From Raja brachyura (Eukaryota), in the NCBI GenBank assembly GCA_963514005.1, contig OY740791.1, positions 39,866,001-39,930,000 of the forward strand: DNA of 64,000 nt. The letters run 5' to 3'. Position 1 is the stretch's first letter. Every line of letters starts with the position of its first letter. Made by a program: the position numbers and the translations under genes. Of the stretch, positions 12,112 to 64,000 are shown one piece after another. A model generated the notes under the pieces. The model saw only the letters and a list, made by a program, of their open reading frames with translations, was not told the origin of the DNA and did not search any database.

Positions 12112-12357
12112 GTTACCTCCAAAGAACACAGCTGACACTTTAACTGCAGCCGGACACTGAAATTGACAAGCAATCACTCCTATGGACATGTGTAACAATA
12201 CTCATTATGTGTGATCAGAACAGTATAGGTTTTAATAATGTTTGAATGGGGATAAGTCTGGATCTTGCAGGAAGGTACTAAATTGGAGCAAGGCAAATTA
12301 CAACATTATTAGGCAATTGTTCAGAAAGATACATGGGAAGCAGTCATTAGTGGGTAA

Positions 12358-40300: not shown

Positions 40301-40648
40301 CATCCAAAACCAGGAGATTCAAATTCACTTTCACATCATTAAACGGTCCAGGGATCTCCACACGGCAGCAATACCAGCCGCCGTCTTCTTTCCGGGGCTG
40401 CTTCATCGTGAGCGACACGTCTCCTTGCTCAATGTTACCACCAAGCTGATATTTCTCGGATCCTGCTGAAGTTACTGTTGCTCCGTTTGTTTTAATCAGT
40501 TCAGCTCTACAGCCCGAGTAAGGGCACTCTCCCCGACCCCAGCACATCGCAGTTTTACCATACTTTCGGACAGAGTAGTGGCACGGCAGAGTGATCGCCT
40601 GTCCCGGGTATCCTCGCACTGGTGATCCGGTGACAAGGGCCACTCGAC
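40301..40648 (-). CDS. IgV exon of a TIM/HAVCR-family receptor (TIM-1/TIM-4-like)
   Basis: Six-Cys TIM signature LPCHY...MCWGRGECPYSGC...GDVSLT...YCCRVEIPGPFND; acceptor ctgtttcag|GT and donor GAT G|gtaagc; 348 bp, phase 1 to 1, no stops. Confidence 0.95.
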
Positions 40649-42619
40649 CTGAAACAGTCCGGGAAAAGACAGTTATAGCCGGCGCTGAGTGATGAGATGG
40701 GAAGTGGCCACAGTGTGACAACCCGTCCCAGCGCTGAGAAAATGAGCCCGTTACCGCTGGCGGCAATTGGGAATATTGTGAAAGGGTTTCTATTTATCGG
40801 GATGTGCGTATTGCAGGCAGATCCAGTATTTACCCCCCAACCCCATTTTATCCCAGGGTAAGTGGTGGCGAGCGGCCGTCTCCAATCGCTGCATTTCTGT
40901 AGCAGCTTTGACACAACCGGTCGGCTTGTGAAGCAATTTCAGGGACGGACACGGGGACATATGGGACAGGGACTGACACACATTGTGTTCCCTGAATGAC
41001 TCATGGGAAGCAAATATTTTCCTCTCTTGACATTTTGTTCACATTTCATTTCATTCGATTCCAAACTCCCCGGGTAGGACCGGAACAAACAATTCGGACC
41101 ACAGCTCCAGCCTTTGGTCTATTTGTCGTTAACAAACCCATCGAGCTGCCAAAACCAGTGGAACAGATTCGGAGCCGAATATCCTCAATGCCGTCAGATC
41201 AGCGCCGACCTGAACTTCAACTCCAACCCCGTTAGTTCACCCCTCGCCCTTCTCAACTCCAGGGGATGGAGCCCGTCCTCACGATCAGACCCGGCATCAC
41301 TCGGTGACTCGGCTGGACCCCCTCGGGCCCCTCGGTTACGCACAGACAGACACATCTCACTTACTGCATTCCAGGGAGTTTGAATAACACGATTTGACAA
41401 AACAATTCAATTCCTGACTCGGAAACGTACCTAAAATAAGAGATACTACGATCAAATGAGCCACACCACCAGTAACAACCATCGCGCTGGAGTAACTCAG
41501 CGGGTCAGGCAGCTTCTCTGGAGAGAAGGAATAGGTGACGTTCCGGGTCGGGCCCCTTCTTCAGACTCGAAGGCACTGTCACGGCCGCTCTCTGACCTGT
41601 TGCTGGGCCACATCCTGTCCTGTGGCTGTTGCTTCCTACTCGACGAGGACACGAGTTTGCTTCGCAGTATTGTTAACCAACACCCCGGTGAATTGAGGCA
41701 AATTATATCAGCCACTCGGTTCCTGCTCTGGCGTTACATCAATGTCCAACGCGCATAAATTACAACCTCCTTCAGCGTTGCTGTCAGTTTAGATCCTCAG
41801 ATCACTGGTGACAAAATGCACCGAGCAGATCTCGTGTCTGTCCTGTGCAGTAGCAGCAGGAGAAGTGGAAATGTTGCCAAGTGCCGGACTGGCTGGGTCG
41901 CTGCTCCACCTGAGTCCTGGGATTTAGTGCCACTTTTCAATGTTTTATTTGTGAAGAGATGGCGATGAAATGGGGAGAAAGCGAGAGTCTCCGGGCATTT
42001 TGTGTCTCCGGGAGACTGAGATAGCATTTTCATAATCATACTTAATTAGCCAAGTATGTTTTGCAACATATGAGGAATTTCATTTGCCATATAGTCATAC
42101 CAATAAAAAGCAACAGAACACACAAAATACATTTTAACATAAACATCCACCACAGTGACTTCTCCACATTCCTCACTGTGATGGAAGGAGAAAAAAAGTT
42201 ACATTTCTTCCGCGTCTTTGGTCTTCCGCAGTCGGGGGCCTCAAGCCTACCGTTGACGGGATGATCTTGGCTCCCTTAGCCAGTGGTCGGGCCCTCCGCA
42301 TCGGGGCAATCAAGCTCCTGCATCGGGGGGGGGGGGGGGGGATCTCAGCTCCCCCGCGACGGGCGATCTGACCCCGGGTCGGGGCTGGTGTGAGCTCCTC
42401 GATGGTGAAATCTGCAGTTGGAGCGTCGATCCCAGGCAAGGGATTGGCTCCAATGGTAAGTCCACATCCCCGTCTGTTTCTATTATCATTCCATTATCAT
42501 TATCATTAACGGTTTCATTCTGCACACCCTGTACAACACTGGAGTCTCTAAACTGGAATAATGTGAGCCCCAAACCTGGTTTATCCTGGGCTGTTGTTAT
42601 AACCATGACATTAGAAGTG

Positions 42620-44400: not shown

Positions 44401-46259
44401 AATCTCTTGCAATTTAATACCACTCTCCAAACATAGCAAACATAACCCATCTCTGTGGATCCCTTCATTGACCTTGTAGCATCAGTTTTTGTACACTTCC
44501 AGGTTTTCTATATTTTATAAAATTACATACCTGCTGTAGGAGGACATTTTAGCTTTATACATGTACCCTGGATCTGGCTTTGCTTGGGACCTTGCTCAGA
44601 TAGAAGGAGAAACAAATAAAATATCTCCTAGTGGTAGTTCCTAAAATAATTTGGTTTCTTGAAAGCTTAATAGTGCACACTGGGAAACAATCTGAGAGAA
44701 TTCAAAATGTTTCAGTGATTCACAGCACTCACAGCATTTTTATTTTCTCATGACACAATGGTTACTTGTGGAAGCTATATTTTTGAAATAATTCATAATT
44801 GATCAATGTCTCAGTAACCTTTCATCTTTGTCTTTCCCCCGTTATCTTTAACCTTATGTTCCCTGCTATTTACAAAACCCCTCTCTCTTTTGTCTAACAA
44901 CCCCAATGTTTATTTTACCTAAACTAGCTGTGCTGTGGAACATAAACACCATGATAAATCTATTTATTGCCTCACTAACATCCTTAAGTTTAGTTTAGTT
45001 TAGCTTAGAGATGCAGCTCGGAAACAGACACTTCAGCCCACCAAGTCCGCACCGACAAGCAATCCCGCAAATTAACATTATCCTACACAATCTTGGGACA
45101 ATTTTACACATACACCAAGCCAATTAACCTACGTACCTGCAGGCCTGTACAAAGCTTTCCAAAAAGGGTGGTGGCATGACAGGATTACAAAAAATCTAAT
45201 GTGAAATAATGTGTGCGCTGCGCACATCACGAGTGCGAAGCGTGAAGTCCCTCGATGCCAGGGTCCAGGAACTGCTTTAAGGGCCCTGGAAGCTCTGGGA
45301 TTTTAGATGCTCCCAGATGCATTCTGAGCCTTATTTTGGAGCATTTTTGCACCAAATTTATGACCAATATTTCAGAAATTAACAGGAATCTGAGAGGTAG
45401 CTTTTTCACACAAAGGGTGCTGGGTGTATGGAACGAGCTGCCAGAGGAGGTAGTTAAGGCTGGGACTATCCTAATGTTTAAGAGACATTCAGACACATAC
45501 ATGGATAGGACAGATTTAGCTGCTGCCTTGGGTGATGCAGATCAGGACACAAGCTTTGGGACACGGTGTGAAGCTGTTGCCGTCTGTCCCAGCCTGGTAA
45601 AAACCTGGATGGAATGGATGTGGAGAGGATGTTTCCACTAGTGGGAGAGTCTAGGACCAGTGGCCACAGCCTCGGAATTAAAAGACATTCATTTAGGAAG
45701 GAGATGACCAGGAAATTCTTAAGTCAGAGGGTGGTGAACTGTGGAATTCATTGCCACAGACAGCTGTGGAGGTCAAGTCAATGGACATTTTTCAGGAGGA
45801 GATTGATAGATGCCAAGAAAGAATAGCTAGAATTGTGGCATGGTGCCAAATCATAATATTTTGGATTACACTTCACATGACTCTGATCAGGGAACATATT
45901 TTACAGGGAAGGTGATTGAGGAGACTTCTCCTGAATGGCATAATATCTGTAGAGAGCTGGCAGTGCTGTAACCATCCTGGTAAGTGGATAGAATTTTACT
46001 GCAATTCTGCTTTGGGACAAAGTGGAAAAGCCTGGGGTATCTGGGAATAAGTCCCAAATTACAATGCACTGGCTATTTCAAACTCTAGACCAGCAGGCGT
46101 ATCTAGGTCATCTTTCAGCTGCTTCTTCGCCTTTACATGTTCAGTCCACTAGCAAGGAAATGCTTTAAAAAGATCAGCGTTTAAGCTGCTAGCAAACATA
46201 GTTGTGGTGCAGCAGTCAAACACACACTTTCAGTGTGCAAAAGTAAGAACAGGTTGTAA

Positions 46260-46990
46260 TCTTATGAGTTGCAAGTTACTGAAATGTATTCTGAGGGATA
46301 GGATATACAGGCATTTGGATTGGCAAGGTATGATTGGGGATAGTCAGCATGGTTTTATACTTGGGAGGTCGTGTCTCACAAATCTGCTTGATTTTATTGA
46401 AGGCGTAACCAAAAAGGTTGATGAGGGCAGAGCTGTAGATGTTGTGTACATGAACTTCTGTTAGGTGTTCGACAAGGTTCCGCATGGTAGGCTGCTCTGG
46501 AAAGTTAGATCACATGGCATCCAAGGAGAGAAAATAGCAAATTGGCTCCATGTGAGGAAACAGAGGGTAATGGTGGAAGGTTGCTTCGCAGACTGGATGC
46601 CTGCGACTAGTGGTGTTCCTCAGGGATCGGTGCTGGGCCTGTTACTGTTTGTCATCTACATCAATGATTTGGATGAGAACATACAGGGCAAGATTAGCAA
46701 GTTTGCTGATGATACAAAAGTTAGTGGTTTTGCAGATAGTGAAGATGGTTGTAAACAATTGCAGCAGGATCTGGATCGATTGGCCAGGTGGGTGGAGGAA
46801 TGGTTGATGGAATTTAATACAGAGAAGTGTGAGGTGTTGCATTCTGGGACATCGTACAAAGACAGGGCCTAAACAGTAAATGGTAAACCTCTGGGTAGTG
46901 TTGTAGAGCAGGGAGATCTTGGAGTACAGGTGCATGGTTCCTTAAAGGTCGAGTCACAGGTAGATAAGGTAGTCAAAAAGGCTTTTGGCA
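46260..46990 (+). mobile_element. CR1 RT fragment
   Basis: SQHGF...SCLTNL, FDKVPHGRLL, GVPQGSVLG, KFADDTK in ORFs 46204-46872. Confidence 0.9.
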
Positions 46991-47089
46991 CTTCGGTCAA
47001 TGGGTACAATGACAACACTGACCCATTAGCTACCCTCTAACTTTTAATATACTTGTAGAATATTTTATGATTCTCCTTTATCTAGAATT

Positions 47090-47282
47090 TACTCAGATAT
47101 AGGAAAACATGGACTTATTAAAGATAGTCAGCAAGGGTTTCTTTGTGTGAGGTCCCTTCTCACAAATTTGATACCATGTTTTTTGAGGAGCTGACAAAGA
47201 TGATTGATGAGGATAGGGCAATGGATGTTGTCTGCATCTACATTGGCCCTCATGGTAGGCTGATCCAAAAGATGAAGGCATA
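47090..47282 (+). mobile_element. Left half of a CR1 fragment split by the Helitron composite
   Basis: Ends HGRLIQKMKA-TA and continues in frame at 54841. Confidence 0.85.
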
Positions 47283-49449
47283 CTAGACCAAGTGCAGACC
47301 CGTTGGGTCTGTTCCCCCATCGCATGGTTGCGAGGGGAGGGTGCGGCCTGAGGCGTCATACACACACTAACCAACCTCACACACACACACACACTAAGCA
47401 CCCCCCCCCACACACACGCACACACACACTAACCACCCCATTGATGTTATATTAATATTATTAATTCACTCCTTTTACCCCATGCCCTGCCCTATCCACT
47501 CACACATAGCCCCCAATTCGCAGGCACGGAGAGGGAGACACGGAGGCACAGAGAGGGACACGGAGGCACACAGAGAGGGACACGGAGGCACACAGAGAGG
47601 GACACGGAGGCACACAGAGAGGGACACGGAGGCACACAGAGAGGGACACGGAGGCAGAGAGGGACACGGAGGCACACAGAGAGGGACACGGAGGCACACA
47701 GAGAGGGACACGGAGGCACACAGAGAGGGACACGGAGGCACACAGAGAGGGACACGGAGGCACACAGAGAGGGACACGGAGGCACACAGAGAGGGACACG
47801 GAGGCACACAGAGAGGGACACGGAGGCACACAGAGAGGGACACGGAGGCACACAGAGAGGGACACGGAGGCACACAGAGAGGGACACGGAGGCACACAGA
47901 GAGGGACACGGAGGCACACAGAGAGGGACACGGAGGCACACAGAGAGGGACACGGAGGCACACAGAGAGGGACACGGAGGCACACAGAGAGGGACACGGA
48001 GGCACACAGAGAGGGACACGGAGGCACACAGAGAGGGACACGGAGGCACACAGAGAGGGACACGGAGGCACACAGAGAGGGACACGGAGGCACACAGAGA
48101 GGGACACGGAGGCACACAGAGAGGGACACGGAGGCACACAGAGAGGGACACGGAGGCACACAGAGAGGGACACGGAGGCACACAGAGAGGGACACGGAGG
48201 CACACAGAGAGGGACACGGAGGCACACAGAGAGGGACACGGAGGCACACAGAGAGGGACACGGAGGCACACAGAGAGGGACACGGAGGCACACAGAGAGG
48301 GACACGGAGGCACACAGAGAGGGACACGGAGGCACACAGAGAGGGACACGGAGGCACACAGAGAGGGACACGGAGGCACACAGAGAGGGACACGGAGGCA
48401 CACAGAGAGGGACACGGAGGCACACAGAGAGGGACACGGAGGCACACAGAGAGGGACACGGAGGCACACAGAGAGGGACACGGAGGCACACAGAGAGGGA
48501 CACGGAGGCACACAGAGAGGGACACGGAGGCACACAGAGAGGGACACGGAGGCACACAGAGAGGGACACGGAGGCACACAGAGAGGGACAAGGAGGCACA
48601 CAGAGAGGGACACGGAGGCACACAGAGAGGGACACGGAGGCACACAGAGAGGGACACGGAGGCACACAGAGAGGGACACGGAGGCACACAGAGAGGGACA
48701 CGGAGGCACACAGAGAGGGACACGGAGGCACACAGAGAGGGACACGGAGGCACACAGAGAGGGACACGGAGAAGGGAGGGGGAAGAAGGGAGGGAGGAGA
48801 GGGGCCCAGCAGCCTTCGGCCTCAGAGTGAGCCTCAGCGCCGTGGCCTCGCATCATCGGCACTTCAGACCCCGAGTATGGGGGGGAGGGGTGGAGTGGGC
48901 GGGTGGGCATGATCCCGAGTGAGCCTGCGGGCCGGCAGCGAGAACGGCGAAAAGCAGCGGGGGAACCAGCCGATCTCTGGCTTCCGCCAGCGTGTATGGG
49001 GAGAGGAGGGGGGCGGTGGAGGAGTGCCGGGCGGCAGCAGGCGTTACCGTCGCGCGGGGCACGGGCGGGTCCAGCTGTGGGAGGAGTGGCGCAAGCGTAC
49101 TTGGAGCCAGAGGGGAGGGGGAGAGTGGAGGAGAGCCGGGCTGTCAAATGAAGAGAAAGGGAGAAGCGGCTTGGATTGGTCGCCATTTGGGCATTGTGAT
49201 GTCAGCAGCTGGTAAGAGCCGTTTAGATTTTAAAACTTGAGTTTTGTTTGAGTTTTGTGATCAATTGTACTCAAAATCTGAGGAAATAATTGACCAAGGA
49301 GTGGGTATGCAAATGTAACAGTAAAATCGCGAGCGAAATGGTAATAATCTCAGTGTTTTTGCGTCTGGTTTTCGCGGAGTAATGAATCAAAGGCAAAATC
49401 AAAGGCAAAATGACATACACACACACACAGAGTTGTAAAATTATATAGA
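47283..49449 (-). mobile_element. Non-autonomous Helitron H1, providing the 3' end of the composite
   Basis: 3' CTAG|T at 47283-47286; hairpin cagacccgttgggtctg at 47295-47311; 5' A|TC at 49449. Confidence 0.85.
47525..48770. repeat. 22-bp minisatellite (cacggaggcacacagagaggga)n, about 56 copies
   Basis: Directly visible near-perfect array inside H1. Confidence 0.98.
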
Positions 49450-49540
49450 TATATATCTCTATCTATCTATCTGTCTCAATATATATATTATATGTGCGTG
49501 TGTGTAGGAAGGAATATATATATATATATATATATATAGA

Positions 49541-51379
49541 CTAGACTAAGTGGGACCCATTGGGTCCCATGTTCACACGGGGGAGAGCTGGTGACCTTAC
49601 GCAATATTCCACCTCTCCATCAATTCCACTATTGGTAGCCAGTTGGGGGGGGGGGGGCGCTTTCTGGAGTGCCAGTATGGGAATTATCGGCTGAAGGGAC
49701 TGGTTTCCAGAGGGCTAATATGGATATTGTGGGCCAAATGAATTCTTGGGGTGGCAGCTCAGTCAATCAAGCCTGATGTGCTGGCAGCTCACTCACGGCT
49801 GGGATGGCTGGCAGTTGACTCACGGCTATTCCTTGAAATTCCATTTCAAACAGGGTGCAAGGCCACCAAATTCAAGCACAGTTTCATGCCACTTCATGCA
49901 AGATGTAATGTCACCAAATATAAGTGCAGTTTCATGCCACTTCAAGCAGGGTGCAAGGCCACCAAATTCAAGTGCAGTTTCGTACCACTTCAAGCAGGGT
50001 GCAGGGCCACCAAATTCAAGTGCAGTTTCATGCCACTTCAAGAAGGGTTCAAGGCCACTAAATTCAAGTGCAGTTTCATACCATTTCATGCAGGATGCAA
50101 CCACCATAAAACCACCATAAAACCACACAAAAGACCACATAAACACCACACTCACAGTTCAGTAGACATTCAGTGTGTTCAGAACATTCACAGCTCAGAC
50201 AAAGTCGTGACCTCTCCCTCCTTCACCCTGCAGAGACTGAGCCACACCCACACTTCCGGGTTTTATAATCCCCCTCCCACCAGAAGGGGCATGGACTTCA
50301 TGGCATGACTGACAGGACAGAGATTCTCAATATTTTTAAAACTCCAATAACACTTTTATTTTTCATTGATGGGAAGAATCATCTGCACCTGATGAACGGA
50401 GGGGGACTGAGTAAGTTGGCCAAAAATCACAGCCGTAAGTGGTAGCGTTTTATCTAAAATCAATATACAAACAGGAAGTTGTCAAGTTTAGACTTTTAAT
50501 CATGCTTTATTTCAAACCAACTACCACCAACAACTATTTGCAGTGTTTTATTTCAATCCCACCACTACCAACAACGATTTGCAGTGCTTTATTTCAAACC
50601 AACCATCACCAACACCCATTTGCTGTGCTTTATTTCAAAACAACCACCACCAACAACCATTTGTTGTGCTTTATTTCAAACCAACCACCACCAACAACCA
50701 TTTGCAGTGCTTTTTTTTCAAACCAACCACCACCAACAACCGTCTGCAGTGCTTTATTTCAAACAACCACCACCAACAACCATTTGCAGTGCTTTATTTC
50801 AAACCAACCACCACCAACGACCATTTGTAGTGCTTTATTTCAAACCAACCACCACCAACGGCCGTTTGCAGTGCTTTATTTCAAACCAACCACCACCAAC
50901 AACCATTTGCAGTGCTTCATTTCAAACCAACCGCCACCAACAATCATTTCCGGTGCTTTATTTCAAACCAACCACATTTTCATTTTCAAACCACATTAAG
51001 GGCACTCAAGGTCAGTAAAACCACACTCACAGTTTAGTAGACATGTGTTCAGTGTTATTCACAGCTCAGACTGAGAGACGTGACCATCTCCCCCCCCCCC
51101 CCCCCCCCCCATCTTGCAGAGACTGACTGAGGCACTCAACATTTCTGGGTTTATTGTCCCTCCGGAAGGGGCATGGCCTTCAGGAGAGAGAATCTCCACA
51201 TTTATTAAACACCAATAACTCTTTTATTTTGCATCAATGGGAAAAATCCTCTTGGCCTGCGCAGCGGAGGGGGACTCTGAGTAAGATGGCCAAAAATCAC
51301 AGCCATAAGTGGCAGCGTTTTTTCCAAAATCAATATACAGAACAGGAAGTGGTCAAAATCCGACTTTTAGTAATATAGA
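49541..51379 (-). mobile_element. Non-autonomous Helitron H2 with internal 48-bp and 41-bp tandem repeats
   Basis: CTAG at 49541; hairpin tgggacccattgggtccca at 49551-49569; 5' TC at 51379; arrays at about 49845-50100 and 50505-50975; diverged internal duplication about 50140-50500 versus 51020-51370. Confidence 0.85.
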
Positions 51380-51558
51380 TAACTAATACTAAAAATCTAT
51401 ATATATATATAATGATATTATATATACAATTTTAGTTTTAATGCAATATTTGAGTGTATATATATATATTTATATTTCACTAAACAATATATTATATATA
51501 TTAGATATTAGATGATCATATCATTATATTATATAGATTATATATTTCATATGATATA

Positions 51559-51590
<32 letters not shown>

Positions 51591-52264
51591 TGCACTCAAA
51601 AATACATACAAACTAAAACATACATAAATTAGAAATACATAAATTAGATCAGCTCATAACCATAAACCTGTAAGCATTAACCTATGGAGATTTATAGTAA
51701 GCATCTTACAATGTTGCACAAACAATATTTGTTTATCATGAGGGCTTTCATGACAAGGATGAATATAACTATGTAAATAATTAAATACCGTATAGTAAAC
51801 AATAAAAGGAATGGGAGATAATTAATATGGAGCAGCTGTTGAGTGGAAAAGTTAGAGGGTTTGTGAGGAAAAAATACTACATTAAAGCTAGGATTAAAAC
51901 TTGAACTTATTTAGGCATATAAAGTATATAAGGCTCACTATATAGCTGTGGTGAATGTCTCAGATACACATCCTGATCTGCTCGTGGGGTTGTCAATAAA
52001 GTGTGTCTGTCCAGTTACTTTATCTATGACACATTATATAAGTAAGTATTGAATTAAGAGAAAAAACAGTCCATTGGATTTTACTCCATGAACTGCAAGG
52101 TAACCTGGGAAGTACAGCTTTGTTAATATCTGCTCAGAGAAATGTGACCCCTAAAATACATTATCATGATAATTTTATAGCTTCCCCAAATAATAATCTT
52201 CATACAATATATGGAACGATTCATCATGCAATTATTTGGATGCTTGAAATGGTTGCAGACATAC

Positions 52265-52621
52265 CTGTAAATATAACAGTGATGTTTGTTTTATTTGCTT
52301 TATTGATGTTAACAATCTCTGCAACTGAAAGCAGTTCACAACCATATGTTCCAGATTCATTCTTCTTCAGTTGCTGAATTGACATTGTCGCTATGTTCGT
52401 GTCAAGGTCCCATAACAATTGGATTTGGTCATTAGCAGATATGTTGCTGGTCTTTAAACGGATTTCTCCAACCTTGGTTGGATTCCCCAATGTATACTTG
52501 TACCACACCAGGCCCATGTCATCAGTGAAATGTCCTTTTGATAGCTCACAGTAGATGGTAGCTGATTCCCCATAGTTCTTCATGATGGTTGGTGGGTACT
52601 GCGACAGTGCAAGAGAGTCAC
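52265..52621 (-). CDS. Isolated IgV exon, PD-1 (PDCD1)/CD28-family-like
   Basis: GESATIYC...LVWYKYTLGNPTKVGEI...MSIQQLKKNESGTYGCELLSVAEIVNINKANKTNITV parallels remembered human PD-1 (GDNATFTC...LNWYRMSPSNQTDKLAAF...ARRNDSGTYLCGAISLAPKAQIKES). Acceptor tttttattggtag|GT, donor ACA G|gtatgt; 357 bp, phase 1 to 1. The IgV call is firm; the PD-1 assignment is by eye. Confidence 0.7.
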
Positions 52622-53419
52622 CTACCAATAAAAACAACAGATAGTGGGATGAGGAAGATTATTGTCTTTTTACGGTTCATAAATGTGGTCAGTCAGCAGT
52701 CAAGCCAAATGAATTAATTTCATGCCATTCAACCTTAAAGAATAAATTAATTATCGAAATGAACCAAAATTGTATGGGTGGTTACCAGTAACCATTCTCC
52801 ACTCTCTAACTCATAAAGCAGGATAGTTCACGACTTCTGACTTCAATCGATTAAATTGATCTCTGCTGTAGTGTCCTTTTTCTAGAAATCGAATACAATG
52901 AAAGCGCTCAAGAAGATGGATATTGCTAGATAATCATATACTTATTCAAATTCTGATCTTGTTAGTGTGTTTAGATGGTTGTCTTTACATCTTTGCGGTA
53001 ATGATTACATTTTTACATATTCCGGTTGACATTTTTCTTGTCGAGGCCGGGATCACCTAATCTGAACATTTCATGCTTTATTTCTCCACATTACTGATTA
53101 AAGTTTTAAAACATCAAAAGACTTTGAAATTAAAAGCACCAGGTTCAAATGATGACGTCACAATGGCTCAGCTAGCAGAGACCACCCTGAATGAAATTTC
53201 ATCCAATATTTAACACGTTATTCGCGATTATATAGCTTTAAAAATGCCAACTTTCACAAGATCTTTACATATTCTGATTCACCTTTTTCCCCTCGTGGCC
53301 AAGATCACTTTCACTGCACATTTTATGCTGTATACCTGTATTAAATGCACGTGCGTTATTCCAAAAATGAATAAATCAAACATGCGTAACCTGTGAAGTG
53401 CATCCACTGGACATCTATG

Positions 53420-53719
53420 CCAAAAGTAAAAAGTTCTGAAAATACAGTTCACAGTTTCGCCAGCGAAATAAGAAAAATGGCGGCGTTTTTGGAGGAGACT
53501 GGGCGGCAGCAGCCGTTATGGTGGCTGGCCAGCAGGAGGCCACAAAATAAATGAGTGTCGGGGGGGGGGGGGGGGGGGGAGGATTTTATTTTAAAATGTG
53601 TACATAAAAATGTCTAAATGTAATGAGGAGTGCATTAGTGAATGTAAAAGTATAATGTCTAGCGAAATGGAAACATTTTGGTGGACCATGAAATCAAAGG
53701 GCAAAAATCTGACACACAT

Positions 53720-53754
<35 letters not shown>

Positions 53755-53766
53755 TTTAAAAGTATA
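53420..53766 (-). mobile_element. 5' fragment of a Helitron of the H1/H3 family
   Basis: Shares aaaatgtctaaatgtaatgaggag, agcgaaatgga, atcaaagg and (ca)n-attttaaa with about 54650-54835. Confidence 0.7.
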
Positions 53767-54840
53767 CTAGACCAAGTCTGTTCCCCCAATGCGCGTATGC
53801 GGGGTTGGGGGCATGCGGCGTGACACACACTAACCACCTACACACTAACTACCCCCTTGATATTATATTAATATTATTAATTAGATCCTTTTATTCCATA
53901 ACCGCCCTAGTCACTGACGCATAGCCCCCAACTCGCAGGAGTGTCTAGAGAGGGAGAGGGGGGTAGAGAGTGAGGGCAGAGAGAGAATGGGAAGAGACAG
54001 TGAGAGAGGCAAAGACAGGTAGGGGGAGGTGGGGGTGAAGGGAGGGTGTGGAGGGGATGGGGCAGGGGAGAGAGGGTGAGAGGGGTAGGGGGAGAGAGGG
54101 GGAAGAGTGGGAGGGAGGGAGGGGGAAAGGGGTGGGGCCAGTCCATCTATTCCCCACTCACTTTCACCCCCACTCCTCTCCCTCTATTCCCACACTCTCC
54201 CTGCTCACCTCCCCCATTCGCCCCTCTCCCTCCCTACTCCCTCCTCTCCCCCAATCCCCCGACTTCCCCTCTTCACCTCCCCAGGATCAAGCCTTACCCC
54301 GCCCGCCCGTCACCTTATTTCATCTCCCGATCTGCAGAGCATGCCGGCGTGAGAGCGGAACTGACGCTTTATCTCTCCTCCCAATCGGCAGAGCATTTTG
54401 TGAACGGGGGGGGGGGGGGGGGGGTTTGAGCGGGCGCGCGCGTGGGCGATTCCAGCCAAAGGAATCTTTGATTCCAGCTGCGGGAGGCGCGAGTGCAGTT
54501 GGAGGGGTAAGGGAGGGGAGGAGCCGGGCTGGCAGACAAATGAAGAGAGAGAAGCGGCTTGGGATTGGTCGGCATGTGTGATTGGGACGTAAGCAACTCG
54601 TGAGGTGCCGTTTCGATTTTAAATTGAGTGAGTGTGTGATTTTATGTACATAAAATATGTACATAAAAATGTCTAAATGTAATGAGGAGTAAATCCATGC
54701 ACGTAGAAGCGAAATCGCTAGCGAAATGGAAAAAATAACGGCGTTTTCGCGGACCATGGAATCAAAGGCCAAAGATCTTATCTGAAAAAAAATGGAATGT
54801 GACATACACCCACACACACAGAATTTTAAACGTATATAGA
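53767..54840 (-). mobile_element. Non-autonomous Helitron H3, providing the 5' end of the composite; 3' hairpin deleted
   Basis: ctagaccaagtctgttcccc versus H1 ctagaccaagtgcagacccgttgggtctgttcccc; 5' TC at 54840 flanked by A on the minus strand. Confidence 0.82.
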
Positions 54841-55080
54841 TGGGATCCACAGAGACTCGGTAGATTGGATTCAAAATTGGCTTATCCATAGAAGACAGAA
54901 TGTAGTGGTGGAGGAGTGTTATTCTGACTGGAGGTGTGTGACCAGCAGTGTTCCAGAGGGGTCGGTGCTGTGAGCTCTGTTAATTGTGATATATATAAAA
55001 TATATATATGATTTGGATTTGGATGAAAACGTAGGTAGGCTGGCAAACAACATAACAATTGGTGGAGTTACAGAAAGTAT
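54841..55080 (+). mobile_element. Right half of the split CR1 fragment
   Basis: (Y)GIHRDSVDWIQNWLIHRRQNVVVEECYSDWRCVTSSVPEGSVL. Confidence 0.88.
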
Positions 55081-55147
55081 ACAAAGGCAAACCTATACTT
55101 GCTCCACTTGTCTGTGTTTGGCCCACATTATTCTGAACCATTTTTAT

Positions 55148-55745
55148 AAAGTCAAGTCAAACAAACTTTATTGTCATTTAGAAATACATTGATATATGCA
55201 GTTCCAAACGAAATTACGTTGCATTTGGCTCCCTGTGCAACACAATAAATTAACCGAAGGATAGGCATGGATGAAAAGGATAAATAGACAATGGTGGCAG
55301 CCCATTACATGGCATTCAGGAGTCTGATGGCTCGTGGGAAGAAGCTGTTGCGGAACCTTGATGTTCTGCTCCTTATGCTGCGGTATCTTTTTCCCGAGGA
55401 CAGCAGAGTGAACAGTCCGTGATGGAGATGTGTGGGGTCCTTTATAATACTGCTGGCCTTAGACACACAGCGTTTGGTCGCAATATCCCCGATTGAGGGG
55501 AGAGAGGTCCCGATGATTTTTTCCGCTGTCCTCACCACTCTCTGCACAGACTTCCAGTCGGAGGCTCTACAGTCCCCAAACCAGACAGAGATACAGCTGG
55601 TCAGAATACTCTCTATGGTGCCCCTGTAGAAAGTAGTGAGGATGGGATGGGGGAGATGAGCTCTTCTCATCCGGCGCAGAAAGTGCAACCGCTGCTGCGC
55701 TCTCTTAACAGTTGATGAGATGTTATTCGACCAGGTCAGACTGTT
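55148..55745 (-). mobile_element. Rex1/Babar-type LINE 3' end
   Basis: ORF 55305-55688: FLRRMRR...FYRGTIESILTSCISVWFG...NSFFPRAIRLLN; (aagtc)n tail. Confidence 0.85.
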
Positions 55746-55764
55746 AGTGATCTGTTAGTGATCT

Positions 55765-56800
55765 AAAATGGTACAGCACAGGAACAGGCCCTTTGGCCCA
55801 AATGATTGTGCCAAACATGATGCCCAGTTAAACTGATCTCATCTGCCTGTACATGATCCATATCCCTCAATTCCCTGCACTTCCATATGCCTATCTAAAA
55901 GCCTCTCATATGCCATTATCATATCTGCCTCCACCACCTGCCCTGGCAATGCTTTTCAGGTCCCAACCACTCTCTGTTTAAAAAACCTTGCCCTGTACTT
56001 CTCCATTAAACTTTACACCTCTCATCTTATAGCTATGTCTTCTAGTCTTGGACATTTCCACCCTGGGAAAAAAAATTCTGACTGTCTACCCTAGCTATGT
56101 TTTTCATAATTTTATATAATTCAAACAAGTCTCCCCTCAACCTTTGACATTCCAGAGAAAACAATCCAAGCCTATCCAACCATTCCCTGCATCTGAAACC
56201 CTCTAATCCAGGCAGCATTCTGGTAAACCTACTCCACACCCTCTCCAAAGCCTTGACATCTTCCAATAATGCATGATCAGAACTGCCACATTACTCCATA
56301 TGTGGCCTAACCAAGATCCTACAGAGCTACATCATGACCACCTGACTCTTATATTCAATGCCCCTAACAATGAAGGGAAGCATACCATACACCTTCTTCA
56401 CCACCCTATCTACGTGTGCTGCTATCTTCAGTGAGCTATGAACTTGGACTCCAAGATCCCTCTGCACATCAATGCTGTTAAGGATCTTGCCTTTAACTGT
56501 AGTCTCTCCTGACATTCAACCTCCCAAAGTGCAACACTTCGCACACGCTCAGGTTTAAATCCATCAGCCATTTCTGCAACTAATCTATATCCCACTGTAT
56601 CTTCTCACAGCATTCCTCACTGTTTGCAACTCCTCCAATTTTGCTGTCATCAGCAAACTTACATCTAGGTCATTGATATATATCACAAACTGCAGAGGTC
56701 CCAGCTGAGATCTCTATACAAGACCACTGGTGTCAGACCTCCAGCCAAAATATCTACCTTCCGCCACAATAATTTTCTATGAATAAGCTAGTTCTGAATG
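55765..56800 (-). mobile_element. Old CR1 fragment shared with duplicate copy A
   Basis: QRDLGVQVHSSLK and FTRMLPGL motifs; homologous to 28700-28850 plus 29948-30400. Confidence 0.8.
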
Positions 56801-57026
56801 CAAATCTATGTATCTGTCCAAATGTCTTTGACATTTGTTCCTGTACGGTACCTACCTCAACTACTTCTTGCAGCAGCTCGTGCAATTTCTCTGAGGTGAA
56901 TATGAAACATCCCAAGGTATTATTTCAAAGAACAAGAAATAACCTCAGTTCTTGTCCAATAATTAGTCCGTAATTAAAATCAATTAAAAAATCGACATCA
57001 CAATCTCATCATCGCCACATTCTTGC

Positions 57027-58975
57027 CCGTTGAACAGTGTTTCCACTTTGAAGGAAATTACCCGAAATTCGGGAAATTCTGGTTGTCTTTTAGGGAAATT
57101 GAATAGTTTAGGCAAATTTCCGCATCCGGCCCACAAAGGGGTGTAAAGGTAATATACACAACACTGCCGGTTTGGCGCTCAAAAGTTTAAACAGAGCGCT
57201 GTCAGTTTAATGCGCGGGAATATAAACAAAGAGCTGTCGACTGCAGCACTGTGGGTTCCAAATATAGAGCTACCTCCTGCAGCGCTTTGAGCTTTAAACA
57301 TAGCGCTATGGCCACAGCACTATGGGTCACAGACTGTTCTGGAAAATGCTCGTATAACAATGAGTCTTTGGAATTCTCTTTCTCAGTGGAAGTTGAGCCT
57401 ATGATTATTTTTAAGGCAGCGGTAATATTCTGGATAAGCCGAGTGGTTAAAGGTTCCCAGTGGATGGTGGGATTACAGTTACATTGGGATTGGCCTTGAT
57501 TTTACAGAATGATGGGTGGGCTCTAGGGGCTGAGAGGGAGAGAGGGAGGGGTGGAGAGAGGGAGAGAGGGAGGGGTGGAGAGAGGGAGAGAGGGAGAGAG
57601 GGGGGGGTGGAGGGGTGGAGAGAGGGAGGGGTGGAGAGAGGGAGAGAGGGAGGGAGGGGAGGGAGAGTGGGAGAGAGGGAGGGAGAGAGTGAGAAGGAGG
57701 GAGGGAGAGAGGAAGGAGGGAGGGAGAGAGAGGGGGAGAGGGAGGGGGAGCGAGAGGGAGGGAGAGAGGGAGGGGAGGAATAAGAGAGGGAGAGAGAGAA
57801 AAAAGGAAGGGCGAGAGAGAAGGGGAGGAAAGAGAGGGAGGAAGGGAGGGAGAAAGAAAGGGAGGGAGAGAGGGAGAGGGAAGAAGGGAGGGAAGGAGAG
57901 AGAGAGCAGGTTGAAAAAATGAAGACAGCGAAAGCTATTGGAGACAACGAGAGCTGCCTTGTACAAGTGAGCAACAGAAGAAGGCAGTTACAGTGTAGTT
58001 ACTTGTTTGATTTGCCTTGTTCTTCTTTGTGTTGTTAACGTTTCCCTGTGAAAAAAACCCAACAAATAGCGTGCAGGAAGCATTTTTGAAAATTTCAAAC
58101 TCCCTCTCCTCCTCTTCATGTGTGGGGGCGGGAGGGACGGTTGTGGGGGCGGCGGGGATTGTGAGGACAGGGGAGTTGAAGGGGTGGGGGGGGTGGTTGT
58201 GGGGGTTGTGGGGGACGGGGGGGACAGGGGGATTGTGGCGGTGGAGAGGGTTGTGGAGGCAGGTGGGGGTTGTGGGGGCGGGGAGGGTTATGGGGGCGGG
58301 GAGGGTTATGGGGGCGGGGGGGGGTAGTTAGGGCGGTGGGGTTGGGGGCCAGCGAGGGCGACCAGCGGGGTAGTGGCTGGAATTGGTGGTGCGATGAGCT
58401 CACATCGGGCGCTGGTCGCTGGTTGTTCTCCTCTACCGTGATGAGAGTCACCGCTTTCCATTTGGCGACATCGGCGACACCTCCAACTCCGGGCTGGGCT
58501 GGACTGGGTCTCCGACTCTGGGCTGGGCTGGGCCGGGTCTCCGACACTGCTGCTTGGGGCTGGGCTGCTGCTTGGAGCGAGGCTGCTGCTTGGGGCGGGG
58601 GGGGGGGGCTGCTTCGGGTCCCTTTGAAAGTCCGGTTGGAAACCTCCACCAGCCACTCTCAGCTCCAGTAAAGACGCGATGGCGCAGGAAGGGGTGGACT
58701 GTCCGGGGGAGTGACAGCAGAAGAGACTAATCCGCGCGGCGCCGACTGGCAGTGGAAGGGATCGATCTGCGCACGTGTGGTTTTTAAGATTTTTAAACCT
58801 CGCTAACCTTTACAACATTCAACTGACCGGAACGATCGGCGCACTAATAGGAAACGGTGATGGAACTGGCAAAAAATCATAGTGCTATCGCAAACCGTTT
58901 TTGAGCAAAGAGAAAGACCGCCAAACCGGAAGATAACAAGATCAGAGTTTTAGTTATGTATAGATAGATAGATAT
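57027..58975 (-). mobile_element. Helitron-like insertion with purine-rich and G-rich low-complexity tracts
   Basis: Ends ...gagttttagttatgtatagatagata like the other Helitron 5' ends; replaces about 30630-31215 of copy A; no CTAG or hairpin end seen. Confidence 0.5.
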
Positions 58976-59269
58976 AGATAATAATCCATTGGATTGTAGT
59001 TACTGATGTGCACTCGTTATAAAAGTCAAAACAGGGTAGGAGTAAGCATTTTATTTTGGATTGGAAGCCTGTTGGTGGTTTGTGCAATGGGTCTGCCAGG
59101 ACAGTGCAGCTGGTTGATCTCGGGGAAGCACTGGAAGTGGAACTGTGTGTGATGACGGGACTAGAAGCTGTCCAAGAGTAAGAGGATGTAGGCGAGGCAC
59201 TAAATGCTAACTTTGCATCTGTATTCATCAAGTAGAAGGACATGGAGGATATTGGTCTATGACTTATGA

Positions 59270-59500
59270 AAACGGAAACACGAGGGGAAACCGAGGCAAT
59301 GAACTCCACGCAGGCGGCACTGGTCAGGATCGAACCTGAATCACTGCAGCTGTGAGGAAACTGCGAACAGCAACATTTTGTTACGACGCCAAGATTGATA
59401 CAGAAATATGTAACATTGAGCTGTCCACAGTCCAAATTCACTTTCACATCTTGAGACAGTCTAAAGGTCTCCACATGGTAACAAAACTAGCCAAGTCTTT
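59270..59500 (-). pseudogene. Second copy of the decayed TIM IgV remnant
   Basis: G*FCYHVETFRLSQDVKVNLD; paralogous to 31500-31732. Confidence 0.85.
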
Positions 59501-59563
59501 GGCTATTTTTAAAGTGGAGATTAACAAGCAATAACATATTATTGTTTCTAGATTAATTGTTAA

Positions 59564-60245
59564 CTCTAATAAGTGAGTTCGGTATTCCAAATGCACATGC
59601 CCAGGTCAGAGATCACAAGCGAAAAACATTCTTGGCGGCCATGCCACGGCATGGACACAGGCCTGCGCCTCTTCTGCAGCCAGGATCGAACCCGGTCTCC
59701 GGCGCCGCAATCGCTGCCGAACCGCCACTGGATCATCCCCGTCCCCTTCGAGTGCCCCTGTCTGGGGGCGGCCAGAGACGTCGGGATGCTGACGGGAGTG
59801 GCGCCCCCAGCTCTCCACAGCCAGCGTGGAGAAGCAGCGCTAAATCCAGCTCAACTCTGCCTGTCTCGCCAGCTAAACCTACCAGCCCTGCCTGGAATTA
59901 GGGGAATGACAGCCCAGGCTTACAGCCAGCGCAGAGAAGCAGCGCTAACTCCACGGCTACGAGCTGGTGTCTCGTAACGCCAGGCAGGGCTGTAGGTTAA
60001 CCCGGCGAGACAGAGTTGAGCTGGAATTAGTGCTGCTTGTCCGCGTTAGCTATGGGCCTGGGGGCGCTGTTCCCATCTGACTCCGGTGTCAGAGACCCGG
60101 ATTTGGTCCTGGCTGCAGATGAGGCGCTGGTCTGTGTCCATGCCGTCGCACGGCTGCTGAAAGTTTTAAAATCGCTTGTGACCTTTGACAAATCCCATGA
60201 TTCCCTGCGTTTTTCAGAATACCAAACTCACTTATTAGTAAGGTG
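59564..60245. mobile_element. Foldback MITE between TTAA sites (piggyBac-like)
   Basis: ctaataagtgagttcggtattc at left versus gaataccaaactcacttattag at right; arms inverted over most of their length. Confidence 0.65.
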
Positions 60246-61792
60246 TTAAAGGTTATGGGGAGATGACAGGCTTCACCAAGTCTGCTCCTATTTCTCTTAC
60301 ACTTCATTCTCTGACCTCACCCCTGACTCTCGGGCTAAAGAAAGGTCTCGACCTGAAATGTCACCCATTCCTTCTATCCAGAGATGCTGCCTGTCCCGCT
60401 GAGTTATTCTAGCATTTTGTGTCTATCTTTGGTGTAAACCATCATCTCCAGTTCCTTCCTACACTGCTCCTGTCTCTTGTAGTTTAAAGACATGGCTATA
60501 AACGCCAGAATGGGAAACACCCAATGTTTCTGTATTATATACCTGATGTAAAATACTAAACGTTCTTCCTCACAATATCTCTGGCAATGGACTCGTTGTC
60601 CATATTACATTCTACCGGCCTGCTATCTTCACCTGCACTTTATTCATAGTGCTGGATATTCAACGGACTTTTTAATTGATTGATTGAAAGTTACAGCATG
60701 GAATCAGGCCCTTCGTCCCACAGAGTCCACGCCGACTATCTATCACTAATTCATATCAAATCTACGATATCCCATTTTCTCATCCACACCCTGCACAATT
60801 TGGGGCATTTTTACAGCGGCGAATTCACCCTTTGCTTAACAATGTTAATTAGAGTTAACAATGAATCTAGAAACAATAACATGGTGTTCCATATTTCCCT
60901 AAGGGGCAGAAGAGGGACATTCAGCCCAACAAGACCGAGTCACCTGGTCAAGCGTTCCCAGCGATGCACCCCCTACTTATAGGGAGGTTGCACGGCAGTC
61001 GGGTCACGACCCTTGACCCGTACTGTTGCTACGCTATGCAAACTGGAGTACACGCGGTGAACTGCAGGTAAGCACTGACCATTGTTTCCAGCGTAGCGGG
61101 CCCGTTAAAACCCGCCGAAATTGGCAATTTTTGCGCTGTAAATAACTATGGGAATCGGGATAAGCGTGAGAGACATTTAGCCTACTTCAGAATTCCAAAA
61201 GTGAGGAGAATTGACGGTAAATAGAAGCGAGAGTTGAAGGGGCAACAACAACCAGAGTGCTCGGCGAACATTGGCTGTTTGCTCACTGCATTTCATCAAC
61301 TAAGGCATTATTTGTGTTTTGTCCTGATTCCTTTGGCATCTAAAAAGTTTCAGAAGTTATAAATCTGGCTGTAACATTTAAAATCGCCCATGGTTCTCGT
61401 GGGTTTTTACATACAAAAAGAAAACGCCTATGAAGCAAAATTTACAGCCAGATTTATCACTTCTGAGACTTTTTAGATACCAAAGGAATCAAGAAAAAAC
61501 ACAAATAATGCCTTACTGTTGATGAAATGCAGTGAGCAAACGCGATAATTCACAATATTTTCAATTCCGATATCTGCACGGCCAATGTTTGCCAAGCACT
61601 GTAGCCGTTGTTGTCCCTTCAGCTCTCACTTCTCTTTACCTTCACTTCGCTTCACTTTTGGAATTCTGAAGTCGGGTACATGTGTCTCACGCTTACCCCG
61701 ACTTCCACAATTTTTTACCGCGCAAAAATTCAACATTTTGGCGGTTTTTAACAGGTCAGAAAGTACGCGTTTCTTGAATTAATAACATATGC

Positions 61793-62827
61793 TAGGTATG
61801 TTACAATACCTACCTTTAGCAGCGCTGCAGTTCTGCCGCTCCCCGTGTGCGTGACTTTGGCGCCTTTCAGAGGGGGGCGGGTTTAAAATGCCGTTTTTCC
61901 CTCGACAGTCCAAATCGATCCATGTCGGGCGATTTCGTCGCTAAAGAGAAATCACTCCGACATTTCATTCATTAAGCTATTTTTAAACTACGCTAGATTA
62001 TTTATTAACTAGAGTAGTTTAAAAATTACCTTCTAAACCCGGTGAAAGCTGATAGCAGAACAGACCTAACGTACGCGATAAAAGAAGGTACACAGTTTAT
62101 TTTTACATAAAAACGTGGTTCTTAGGAAGCATTTAATCACATTTTCATGTTGCGAAAAGGGGACAAACAAAATGTATGAACCAGCTGTATTTTTCATACC
62201 GACTTCACCGCAAACCACAACGTTCCAATCCACCACATTCCACTAAAACCCACTTGCTAGTTGATTTAAATGGCCATTAATTTACAGGCATTACACACTA
62301 AATTCCTTCCATTTGGCCTATAAATTCATGAAAATGAGATTTTAAAATCATGTTATATTGTGGATTATTGTGTGAATGTTATTTGGACACTTAGGCAATT
62401 TAAAAAAGTTTATTTTTTCTTAAGAAATGGATAGATGTTTAGATCTAGTAATTGAATTTTGTAATTAGCAACAATTAGATAACTAACTAATTATATGCTT
62501 TAATTTCAGGTCATCCAAGTAAGATTGTTTCATATTTGTTTCAGAATGCTTCAATCTATAATAACTGAAATTTTCATTGCGTTCTCTTAATTTTTAAGAA
62601 AGTTATGGGCTTTTGACCGTTCTAGATCACAGCTTTTGAGTTAAGTCAATGGAAAGGCAATGGGGAACAAGATGCTAATTTTCGAGTATGAAAATGGCCA
62701 TAAATTTTTTTAATACTGAAGATATGAAAGTGAATTAGGTTTCAAATTAAACTGCTTTTTATGCCTTATCTGATTGGATAAATTGCAGACTTGATTTTTT
62801 AAATCTCAAAATTTTGTAACATTGCTA
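61793..62827. mobile_element. Non-autonomous cut-and-paste DNA transposon nested in the foldback element
   Basis: TIRs taggtatgttacaa / ttgtaacattgcta; flanking duplication catatgc / catttgc; the empty site aataacatatgccggaag is seen at about 38635. Confidence 0.8.
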
Positions 62828-62906
62828 CATTTGCCGGAAGTTAGGATGTCCTCCAGATGGATTGAGCGGCTCCGTGCGTCACGCCCTTTGACCCAGTGAC
62901 CTTCCG

Positions 62907-64000
62907 TGCTCCCCGCTCTTCGACACAAGAGGCAGCTTAACCCACTCGCATCTTCGAACCTGGGAGAAAACCAGAACACGAGGGGAAACTGGTGGAGAAC
63001 CTGCGAACTCCACGCAGGTGGCACTGGCGGGTGGGATCGAACCTGGGTGACTACAGCTGTGAGGAAACTGCCGGGTATCCTCGCACTGGTGATCCGGTGA
63101 CAAGGGCCACTCGACCTGAAACAGTCCGGGAAAAGACAGTTATAGCCGGCGCTGAGTGATGAGATGGGGAGAGGCCACAGTGTGACAACCCGTCCCAGCG
63201 CTGAGAAAATGAGCCCGTTACCGCATGCGGCAATTGGGAATATAGTGAAAGGGTTTCTATTTATCGGGATGTGCGTATTGCAGGCAGATCCAGTATTTAC
63301 CCCCCAACCCCATTTTATCCCAGGGTAAGTGGTGGCGAGCGGCCGTCTCCAATCGCTGCATTTCTGTAGCAGCTTTGACACAACCGGTCGGCTTGTGAAG
63401 CAATTTCAGGGACGGACACGGGGACATATGGGACAGGGACTGACACACATTGTGTTCCCTGAATGACTCCTGGGAAGCAAATATTTTCGTCTCTTGACAT
63501 TTTGTTCACATTTCATTTCATTCGATTCCAAACTCCCCGGGTAGGACCGGAACAAACAATTCGGGTCACAGCTCCAGCCTTTGGTCTATTTGTCGTTAAC
63601 AAACCCATTGAGCTGACAAAACCAGTGGAACAGATTCGGAGCCGAATATCCTCAATGCCGTCAGATCAGCGCCGACCTGAACTTCAACTCCAACCCCGTT
63701 AGTTCACCCCTCGACCTTCTCAACTCCAGGGGACGGAGCCCGTCCTCGCGATCAGACCCGGCATCACTCGGTGACTCGGCTGGACCCCCTCGGGCCCCTC
63801 GGTTACGCACAGACAGACACATCTCACTTACTGCATTCCAGGGATTTTAAATAACACGATTTGACAAAACAATTCAATTCCTGACTCGGAAACGTACCTA
63901 AAATAAGAGATACTACGATCAAATGAGCCACACCGCCAGTAACAACCATCGCGCTGGACACTGTAGTGCTGGAGTAACTCAGCGGGTCAGGCAGCATTTC
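62907..64000 (-). pseudogene. TIM paralog (copy B) with most of the IgV exon deleted
   Basis: Near-identical to 40078-41520 but lacking about 40241-40603; junction gtgaggaaactg|ccgggtatcc; only the acceptor and GRVALVTGSPVRGYP remain. Confidence 0.92.

What the first reader, a model, noticed from the sequence alone, without database searches (positions are those of the whole stretch)
53767..53790. Terminator hairpin deleted in the lead Helitron, a mechanism for read-through capture
Seen: H3, which supplies the 5' TC end, reads ctagaccaagtctgttcccc, lacking about 15 nt of the cagacccgttgggtctg hairpin present in H1. Established: the end-bypass model predicts that loss of the 3' hairpin lets transposition run into flanking DNA until a later terminator. 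Inference: this lesion caused capture of the IgV exon, with termination at H1. H2, which has its own hairpin, must have been bypassed or inserted later.
Basis: partly seen in the sequence, partly recalled or inferred. Interest (0 to 1): 0.7.

Follow-up and report, generated by a model that had tools for sequence, protein, structure and literature searches.

The report
Helitron read-through copied skate PD-1 exon
In a skate genome, a chain of rolling-circle transposons (Helitrons) carrying a stray copy of one exon of the immune-checkpoint gene PD-1 splits an old repeat cleanly in two, and its lead element has lost its normal stop hairpin; this likely let copying run on through the exon, a known mechanism, though that the loss came first is untested.

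Summary
Observation confirmed. H3 (minus strand, 54840-53767) lacks exactly 15 nt, removing 12-14 of the 17 nt of the terminal hairpin kept in H1. H3 heads a 7,558-nt block (A|TC at 54840, CTAG|T at 47283) that splits one CR1-like fossil with no base lost or duplicated. The captured IgV exon is the V exon of PD-1, with its intron flanks, lying in a TIM/HAVCR duplication; no other PD-1 exon is in the window. Not shown: that the deletion preceded the jump. H3 has a precise CTAG|T end and keeps a second stem; intact ends are also bypassed (11.7% versus at least 36% in Helraiser); no genome, donor or sister-copy sequence could be read. Termination at H2, with H1 already at the target, remains possible. 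The mechanism (end bypass, compound Helitrons, palindrome-less bypassed ends) is published for bats and maize. Verdict: real, partly supported, a new member of a known kind; probability about 0.5 for the full causal story.

The parts
53767..54840 (-). H3, 1,074-nt non-autonomous Helitron, lead element: A|TC at 54840, CTAG|T at 53767
   Evidence: 81-85% identical to H1 in alignable parts; repeat-level contig depth in 4 of 4 runs
53775..53778 (-). Site of the 15-nt deletion of the terminal hairpin (three registers, GT microhomology)
53783..53811 (-). Residual interrupted GC stem in H3, now 12 nt before CTAG; possible weak substitute terminator (untested)
52932..53766 (-). H4: Helitron 5' end of the same family lacking its first four bases (TCTA), followed by repeated DNA with a ~250-nt internal duplication; no hairpin-CTAG end. 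Whether 52932-53420 belongs to H4 or to another repeat is not settled; left limit lies between 52932 and about 53000
   Evidence: 81% to H3 5' end; depth step at bin 52932; CTAG scan
51599..52931 (-). Low-copy host segment: PD-1 intron DNA on both sides of the V exon
   Evidence: one 1,408-nt contig of run X6 covers 51599-52961 at low depth; intron read-through matches P0095
52265..52621 (-). PD-1 (PDCD1) IgV exon, 357 nt, AG/GT intact, phase 1-1, open frame
   Evidence: 96 of 118 aa identical to XP_032887962 and 100 of 118 to XP_055501532
51380..51598 (-). TA-rich tract before H2
49541..51379 (-). H2, 1,839-nt Helitron of another subfamily, A|TC ... 8-bp hairpin ... CTAG|T
   Evidence: loose ends of unlike sequence pile up at 51379/51380 in 3 of 4 runs among the rows shown
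49450..49540 (-). 91-nt TA-rich spacer between H2's CTAG and H1's family start; itself begins TCTATATA
47283..49449 (-). H1, 2,167-nt Helitron with internal 22-mer array; 7-bp hairpin at 47295-47311; supplies the outer CTAG|T
47110..47282 (+). Left half of the CR1-like LINE reverse-transcriptase fossil split by the block (label CR1 recalled; Pfam RVT_1 on the reference copy)
   Evidence: aligns to reference copy up to 46514; RVT_1 at 46465-46869
54841..54972 (+). Right half of the same fossil
   Evidence: aligns to reference copy from 46515 onward

Best explanation
The 7,558-nt block 47283-54840 begins at H3's TC, ends at H1's CTAG and splits a LINE fossil at A^T, and it likely moved as one compound non-autonomous Helitron from the PD-1 gene: a transposase supplied in trans would have started at H3, run past H3's end (likely because the hairpin was already deleted) and past the end-less H4, copied the PD-1 V exon and stopped at an intact hairpin-CTAG, likely H1's. 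Shown: the deletion, the ends, the clean split, the PD-1 identity of the exon, the lack of a terminator between H3 and H2. Inferred: that H3 had landed inside H4's first bases (TCTA^TATAC) at the donor, which would disable H4's start and make H3 the lead (about 0.85); that the deletion is older than the jump (about 0.7 of that); that this jump was the first capture and not a second move (about 0.8). H2 likely arrived later in the TA-rich tract, or was bypassed; a stop at H2 with H1 already at the target gets about 0.25 and does not change the H3 step.
For: Flanks align end to end on a third LINE copy, left to 46514 and right from 46515; all three complete elements have A before TC and T after CTAG, 6 of 6 junctions. 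H4 lacks exactly TCTA and no spare TCTA stands before H3: this needs no further mutation if H3 was nested at the donor and then led, but a precise 4-nt loss if H3 came later; the local background is 18 indels in 4,091 aligned nt, one of 4 nt and one of 15 nt. None of the 5 CTAG sites between H3's end and H2's end is followed by T or has a stem (-2.7 to 0 kcal/mol). The exon is PD-1 V with no other PD-1 exon in 64 kb; PD-1 and TIM proteins of two other skates come from contigs of different length. Two versions of the segment appear in runs X1 and X2, one long contig in X6. In Helraiser, hairpin deletion raised read-through from 11.7% to at least 36% (PMC4778049). A 15-nt deletion placed at random in H3 would take 5 or more hairpin bases in 23 of 1,074 positions.
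Against: No donor, sister-copy or empty-site sequence was read (no genome; one search listed no row on this indel and no empty-site joint, with most rows cut), so the order of deletion and jump is not shown. H3 has a precise CTAG|T end, so it once terminated there. A second stem remains 12 nt from the CTAG. H1 and H3 differ by three gaps of 13 nt or more in about 510 aligned nt, hairpins are deletion-prone (recalled), and the site was picked by eye, so the 2% chance figure is too generous. Hairpin deletion cut Helraiser's total activity to 8.8-35%, so by my arithmetic the absolute yield of read-through (0.03-0.13) is no higher than wild type (0.12). [quoted passage not shown]
Confidence: 0.5

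Rival explanations
1. H3 led the jump with its hairpin intact (ordinary leakiness of the terminator), and the 15-nt deletion is later decay at the present site, a slip across a stem-loop with 2-nt microhomology.
For: Intact Helraiser ends are read through in 11.7% of events. The copy has had time to decay: a donor-like contig in run X1 differs at 9 sites plus 6 gap letters in 200. The GT microhomology fits hairpin slippage. If H1 was the stop and H2 was present, an intact hairpin was bypassed anyway.
Against: 15-nt deletions are rare locally (1 in 4,091 aligned nt), and the one end that had to be passed is the one of four that lost its hairpin.
Confidence: 0.2
2. Stepwise capture: H4, which has no 3' end, captured the PD-1 exon first; H3 was added afterwards, at an intermediate site (then re-mobilising the block) or here, so its lesion did not cause the capture.
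For: No terminator lies between H4's start and the exon. Helitrons insert near or inside others, and nested intermediates transpose from the inner 5' end in maize; 5'-to-3' abutting insertions occur in bats.
Against: Addition at the present site needs a precise loss of TCTA. An intermediate copy predicts a third version of the segment; at most two contigs per site are listed, though contigs drop variants.
Confidence: 0.15
3. No read-through: one H1/H3-family element inserted into the LINE, and the PD-1 segment was copied into it later by double-strand-break repair (filler DNA or ectopic gene conversion between related Helitron copies).
For: H1, H3 and H4 are homologous (71-85%), which offers homology for template switching; filler-DNA capture is reported for insect Helitrons (PMC6544945).
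Against: H3, H2 and H1 each have both of their own ends with A|TC and CTAG|T, and all parts point the same way, as one pass of rolling-circle copying would leave them.
Confidence: 0.1
4. The exon is at its native place, or the block is an assembly artefact.
For: No run holds half the words of the stretch (best 0.23), and no listed contig bridges any junction of the block.
Against: No PD-1 leader, transmembrane or tail exon in 64 kb; a TIM gene surrounds it; the LINE flanks join in register; two contigs of run X1 match the window's version with 0 of 206 and 1 of 298 other letters.
Confidence: 0.04

Closest known systems
Helraiser hairpin-deletion mutant and the Myotis Helibat exemplar with a bypassed palindrome-less CTAG (PMC4778049)
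   Same: TC...CTAG ends, A^T target, hairpin about 10-12 nt from the end, loss of the hairpin with DNA beyond the CTAG included in the element.
   Different: There the order was set by experiment or backed by empty sites; here it is inferred from one copy. Here the new end is another Helitron's intact terminator about 6.5 kb on, not a cryptic motif.
HelibatN539 compound Helitron (PMC4224331)
   Same: 5' end of one Helitron and 3' end of another with the host DNA between them captured; cited as support for end bypass.
   Different: Skate instead of bat; four elements in the chain; the cargo is an intact coding exon of an immune receptor; low copy number.
Maize multi-terminus helA elements such as helitron_mc2 (PMC3288121)
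   Same: Nested Helitrons transposing from the inner element's 5' end, leaving damaged internal (pseudo) 3' ends; timing of the damage open.
   Different: Maize pseudo-ends lack CTAG (99 of 100); H3 keeps CTAG and lost the hairpin, and H2's internal end is intact.
Skate PD-1 (XP_032887962, XP_055501532; PMC12151841)
   Same: V exon sequence 81-85% identical, splice sites and downstream intron kept.
   Different: Only the V exon is here; no leader, transmembrane or ITIM/ITSM exon in the window.

Membership tests
Canonical Helitron (non-autonomous) | 5' TC | tested here: met
   H3, H2, H1 start TCTATAT; H4 lacks its first four bases
Canonical Helitron (non-autonomous) | 3' CTRR | tested here: met
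   CTAG at 53767, 49541, 47283; none found for H4
Canonical Helitron (non-autonomous) | 16-20-nt palindrome 10-12 nt from the 3' end | tested here: met
   H1 17 nt, H2 19 nt; deleted in H3, which is the finding
Canonical Helitron (non-autonomous) | Insertion between A and T, no target duplication | tested here: met
   6 of 6 junction bases; flanks in register with none lost or doubled
Canonical Helitron (non-autonomous) | Dispersed repeat with sharp ends | tested here: inconclusive
   Repeat-level depth for H2, H3, H4 and loose ends at H2's 5' end; rows for H3's ends not shown
Canonical Helitron (non-autonomous) | An autonomous RepHel partner with matching ends | not testable with these tools
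   No genome; no RepHel family among 24 of 138 window ORFs scanned
End-bypass (read-through) capture | Host DNA lies 3' of a lead element, inside outer Helitron ends | tested here: met
End-bypass (read-through) capture | Donor locus shows the lead element upstream and the new end downstream | not testable with these tools
   No genome; the X6 contig stops at 52961, short of H4's alignable part
End-bypass (read-through) capture | Terminator defect older than the transposition | tested here: inconclusive
   No row on the indel; pattern scans found no copies
Empty-site-validated insertion | Orthologous or paralogous site without the block | tested here: inconclusive
   TIM copy A lacks the whole region including part of a flanking LINE, so it is no empty site; LINE continuity stands in
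PD-1 (PDCD1) gene | V domain orthologous to skate PD-1 | tested here: met
   XP_032887962 named as skate PD-1 in PMC12151841
PD-1 (PDCD1) gene | Leader, stalk/transmembrane and ITIM/ITSM exons | tested here: not met
   None in the window: a gene fragment, not a PD-1 gene

The most novel reading that the evidence does not exclude
Hairpin-loss read-through shuffled the ligand-binding V exon of PD-1 into a TIM/HAVCR locus, where it lies in sense and in phase 1-1 between the leader exon of the partial copy B (which lost its own V exon) and the complete copy A; it would be spliced into a chimeric TIM-leader/PD-1-V/TIM receptor, a PD-L1-binding decoy without ITIM/ITSM, kept in more than one skate species.
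Probability: 0.07. Interest if true: 0.75.

Novelty: new member of a known kind. Interest (0 to 1): 0.35.

Why it matters
The mechanism is established in bats and maize, so the lesion is an illustration, not a discovery. Its value is that it is a natural case whose order of events can be tested outright: the donor gene is known (PD-1), the junction predicts specific donor sequence, and a related skate seems to share the duplicate, so one orthologous read decides whether the lesion came first. It also extends Helitron exon capture to cartilaginous fish, for which my searches (listings only) showed no report, and puts an immune-checkpoint exon inside another immune-receptor locus.

Tried and rejected
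No whole genome is held, so donor, empty site and family survey could not be run. Pattern scans for deleted and intact ends found 0 matches in metagenome contigs and viral contigs; these collections are not expected to hold skate DNA, so this says nothing. The look-up of sequencing runs: no RNA holder listed. Read laying covered only 51000-55800, 4 of the 23 listed runs; it gave no row on the 15-nt indel (53708-53762 skipped as a repeat; 74 indel, 368 joint and 5,218 loose-end rows not shown). Its joints 53673/53677 to 54743 link homologous parts of H4 and H3 and were rejected as empty sites. TIM copy A was rejected as an empty site: it lacks 46252-56025 and starts again inside a LINE that is longer in copy B. 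The MAFFT alignment of the two non-overlapping flanks misplaced the junction; pairwise alignments were used. My first reading of the H2/H1 junction as simply head-to-tail was corrected: a 91-nt spacer lies between. CTAG at 52926 was rejected as H4's end: no stem, followed by C, and outside the repeat-depth bins. Conservation of the second stem is not shown: H1 and H3 pair it in different registers. No chimeric TIM/PD-1 protein among 4 hits of 195 candidates and 2 of 7; weak evidence. No selection test on the exon was possible: 579 difference rows were cut. Earlier findings: nothing by place, sequence or relatives.

Full report
Observation. The sequence is as described. At 53767 the plus strand reads CTAGACCAAGTCTGTTCCCC; at 47283 (H1) it reads CTAGACCAAGTGCAGACCCGTTGGGTCTGTTCCCC. 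The gap is exactly 15 nt, with GT at both sides so that three registers fit, and removes 12-14 of the 17 hairpin bases. Elsewhere the 3' regions match at 147 of 173 positions. The hairpin core is found at three other places in the window (12086, 47297, 49554), so the loss is in H3. H3 still has an interrupted GC stem (53783-53811, -9.6 kcal/mol against -5.7 for H1's hairpin and -8.0 for H2's), which the deletion has moved to 12 nt before CTAG, 16 nt from the end, a little beyond the usual 10-12.

Anatomy. On the minus strand the order is H3 (54840-53767), H4 (from 53766), host DNA with an IgV exon, a TA-rich tract, H2 (51379-49541), a 91-nt TA-rich spacer, H1 (49449-47283). H3, H2 and H1 each have A before TC and T after CTAG (6 of 6). 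The DNA left of 47283 and right of 54840 aligns end to end on another LINE reverse-transcriptase copy in the window: the left flank stops at 46514 and the right flank starts at 46515 (RVT_1; the name CR1 is recalled). So 7,558 nt were put into one fossil at A^T with nothing lost or doubled, the Helitron signature (definition quoted in PMC3288121). The reference copy is only about 70% alike, so the register rests on ungapped blocks of 47 and 15 nt at the junction.

The cargo. The exon (52621-52265, 357 nt, AG/GT, phase 1-1, open) is a V-set domain. Its only long homologues among 195 candidates are four batoid proteins, the best named programmed cell death protein 1; identity is 96 of 118 residues to XP_032887962 and 100 of 118 to XP_055501532. 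PMC12151841 names XP_032887962 as thorny skate PD-1 (passages). No other PD-1 exon is in the window. The window instead holds a complete TIM/HAVCR gene (leader 41512, V 40649, mucin 31021 and 15521, transmembrane 6770) and a partial upstream duplicate, in which the block lies. PD-1 and TIM come from contigs of different length in two skates (62.05 versus 66.07 Mb; 55.77 versus 60.43 Mb), which I read as different chromosomes. The exon is therefore ectopic.

Related genomes. No assembly is held. Contigs of 4 of 23 listed runs were laid on 51000-55800. Depth is low from 51644 to 52931 (15-21 in X6) and hundreds to thousands of times higher from 52932 up and below 51380; the tool warns that this is no copy number, but it separates host DNA from repeats. 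In X6 one 1,408-nt contig covers 51599-52961 and ends there. In X1 two contigs match the window with 0 of 206 and 1 of 298 other letters and a third differs at 9 sites (Fisher p = 7e-5), three of which it shares with X6, so two versions exist; depths are only 3-5. In X2, at 5 listed sites where its two contigs differ (51789, 51800, 52187, 52222, 52229), one has the window's letter and the other X6's. That suggests the duplicate is older than the split of these species, but 579 rows were cut and old alleles are not excluded. Nothing listed bears on whether the 15-nt deletion exists in other copies.

Mechanism. H4 is a further 5' end of the same family (147 of 182 to H3) that lacks just TCTA, and no spare TCTA stands in front of H3. 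If H3 inserted at the A^T inside TCTA^TATAC at the donor and the block then left from H3's TC, this junction follows with no extra change, and H4's own start would have been broken. If H3 came later at this site, a precise 4-nt loss is needed; between the two TIM copies there is one 4-nt and one 15-nt gap among 18 in 4,091 aligned nt. I therefore infer that H3 led and that its end was passed (about 0.85). From there no terminator stands in the way until H2: the 5 intervening CTAGs have no stem and no following T. So capture needed two missing ends, H3's and H4's. The spacer between H2 and H1 favours a stop at H1 with H2 inserted later or bypassed, but it begins TCTATATA, so H1 plus spacer may have been at the target first and the block may have stopped at H2; abutting insertions are reported in bats.

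Did the lesion come first? For: it hits the one end that had to be passed; a random 15-nt deletion in H3 would take five or more hairpin bases in 23 of 1,074 positions; in Helraiser, hairpin loss raised read-through from 11.7% to at least 36%. Against: H3's own end is a precise CTAG|T; a second stem remains; H1 and H3 differ by three gaps of 13 nt or more; intact ends leak; hairpin loss lowered overall activity to 8.8-35%, so read-through events were not more numerous in absolute terms by my arithmetic, though an intact terminator downstream might restore activity. My estimate, not a tool result: about 0.5 for the full story, 0.2 for later decay, 0.15 for H4-led stepwise capture, 0.1 for repair-mediated copying.

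Comparison with what is known. PMC4778049 (passages and two sections read; its supplementary figure 4 not seen, and it may hold a closer parallel) shows the hairpin is the terminator and reports one natural bat copy whose palindrome-less CTAG was bypassed. PMC4224331 (passages) describes a compound bat Helitron made of one element's 5' end and another's 3' end with captured DNA between. PMC3288121 (passages) describes nested maize elements that left from an inner 5' end and carry damaged internal ends. PMC6544945 (passages) gives the filler-DNA alternative. The elements meet the structural tests for canonical non-autonomous Helitrons; the autonomous partner and the donor were not testable. Searches for Helitrons with skate, elasmobranch, immunoglobulin or PD-1 terms (listings only, open-licence library) showed no report of this case. 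Two earlier scan notes on plant Helitron captures were judged ordinary by their writers; I did not test them.

Verdict. A real lesion in a real exon-carrying compound Helitron, fitting a known mechanism; the causal order is plausible and unproven. New member of a known kind, interest 0.35. The bolder reading, a spliced TIM/PD-1 chimera, rests only on orientation, phase and intact splice sites.

Noticed in passing
63997-63896, 63116-63072, 52621-52265, 41512-41429 (minus): TIM copy B keeps its leader exon but only 15 codons of its V exon (40241-40604 of copy A has no counterpart) and no mucin exon; the PD-1 V exon lies in sense and phase 1-1 between leader B and leader A, so it could be spliced into a TIM transcript.
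   Followed up: partly
27975-41513 and 45809-63995: Tandem partial duplication of a TIM/HAVCR gene; divergence is uneven, 6.8-9.1% in five segments but 1.9% around the leader exon, hinting at gene conversion.
   Followed up: partly
12086-12118 (+): Fourth family-type 3' end with an intact hairpin but ending ATAG|T instead of CTAG|T.
   Followed up: no
57035-58977 (minus): Another Helitron-like 5' end near 58975 with no hairpin-CTAG end found; it stands where copy A has its first mucin exon.
   Followed up: partly
50142-50498 and 51017-51369: H2 contains a 73% duplicate of its own 5' region plus 41-mer and 48-mer arrays; H1 holds 57 near-perfect copies of a 22-mer.
   Followed up: no
33337-38364: LTR retrotransposon (RT, RNase H, integrase, protease) with 763-nt repeats 98.7% alike, set inside another repeat.
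   Followed up: no
20543-25261 (minus): Element with long RT and tyrosine-recombinase frames, DIRS-like (label recalled).
   Followed up: no
31662-31757 (minus): Decayed fragment of a TIM V exon (stop codon) inside an intron of copy A.
   Followed up: no
P0094: An annotated thorny skate PD-1 isoform lacks the stalk and transmembrane part and joins the V domain to the tail.
   Followed up: no
38365-39950, 60965-61792, 32655-33235: A repeat family with long internal inverted repeats, in several nested copies.
   Followed up: no
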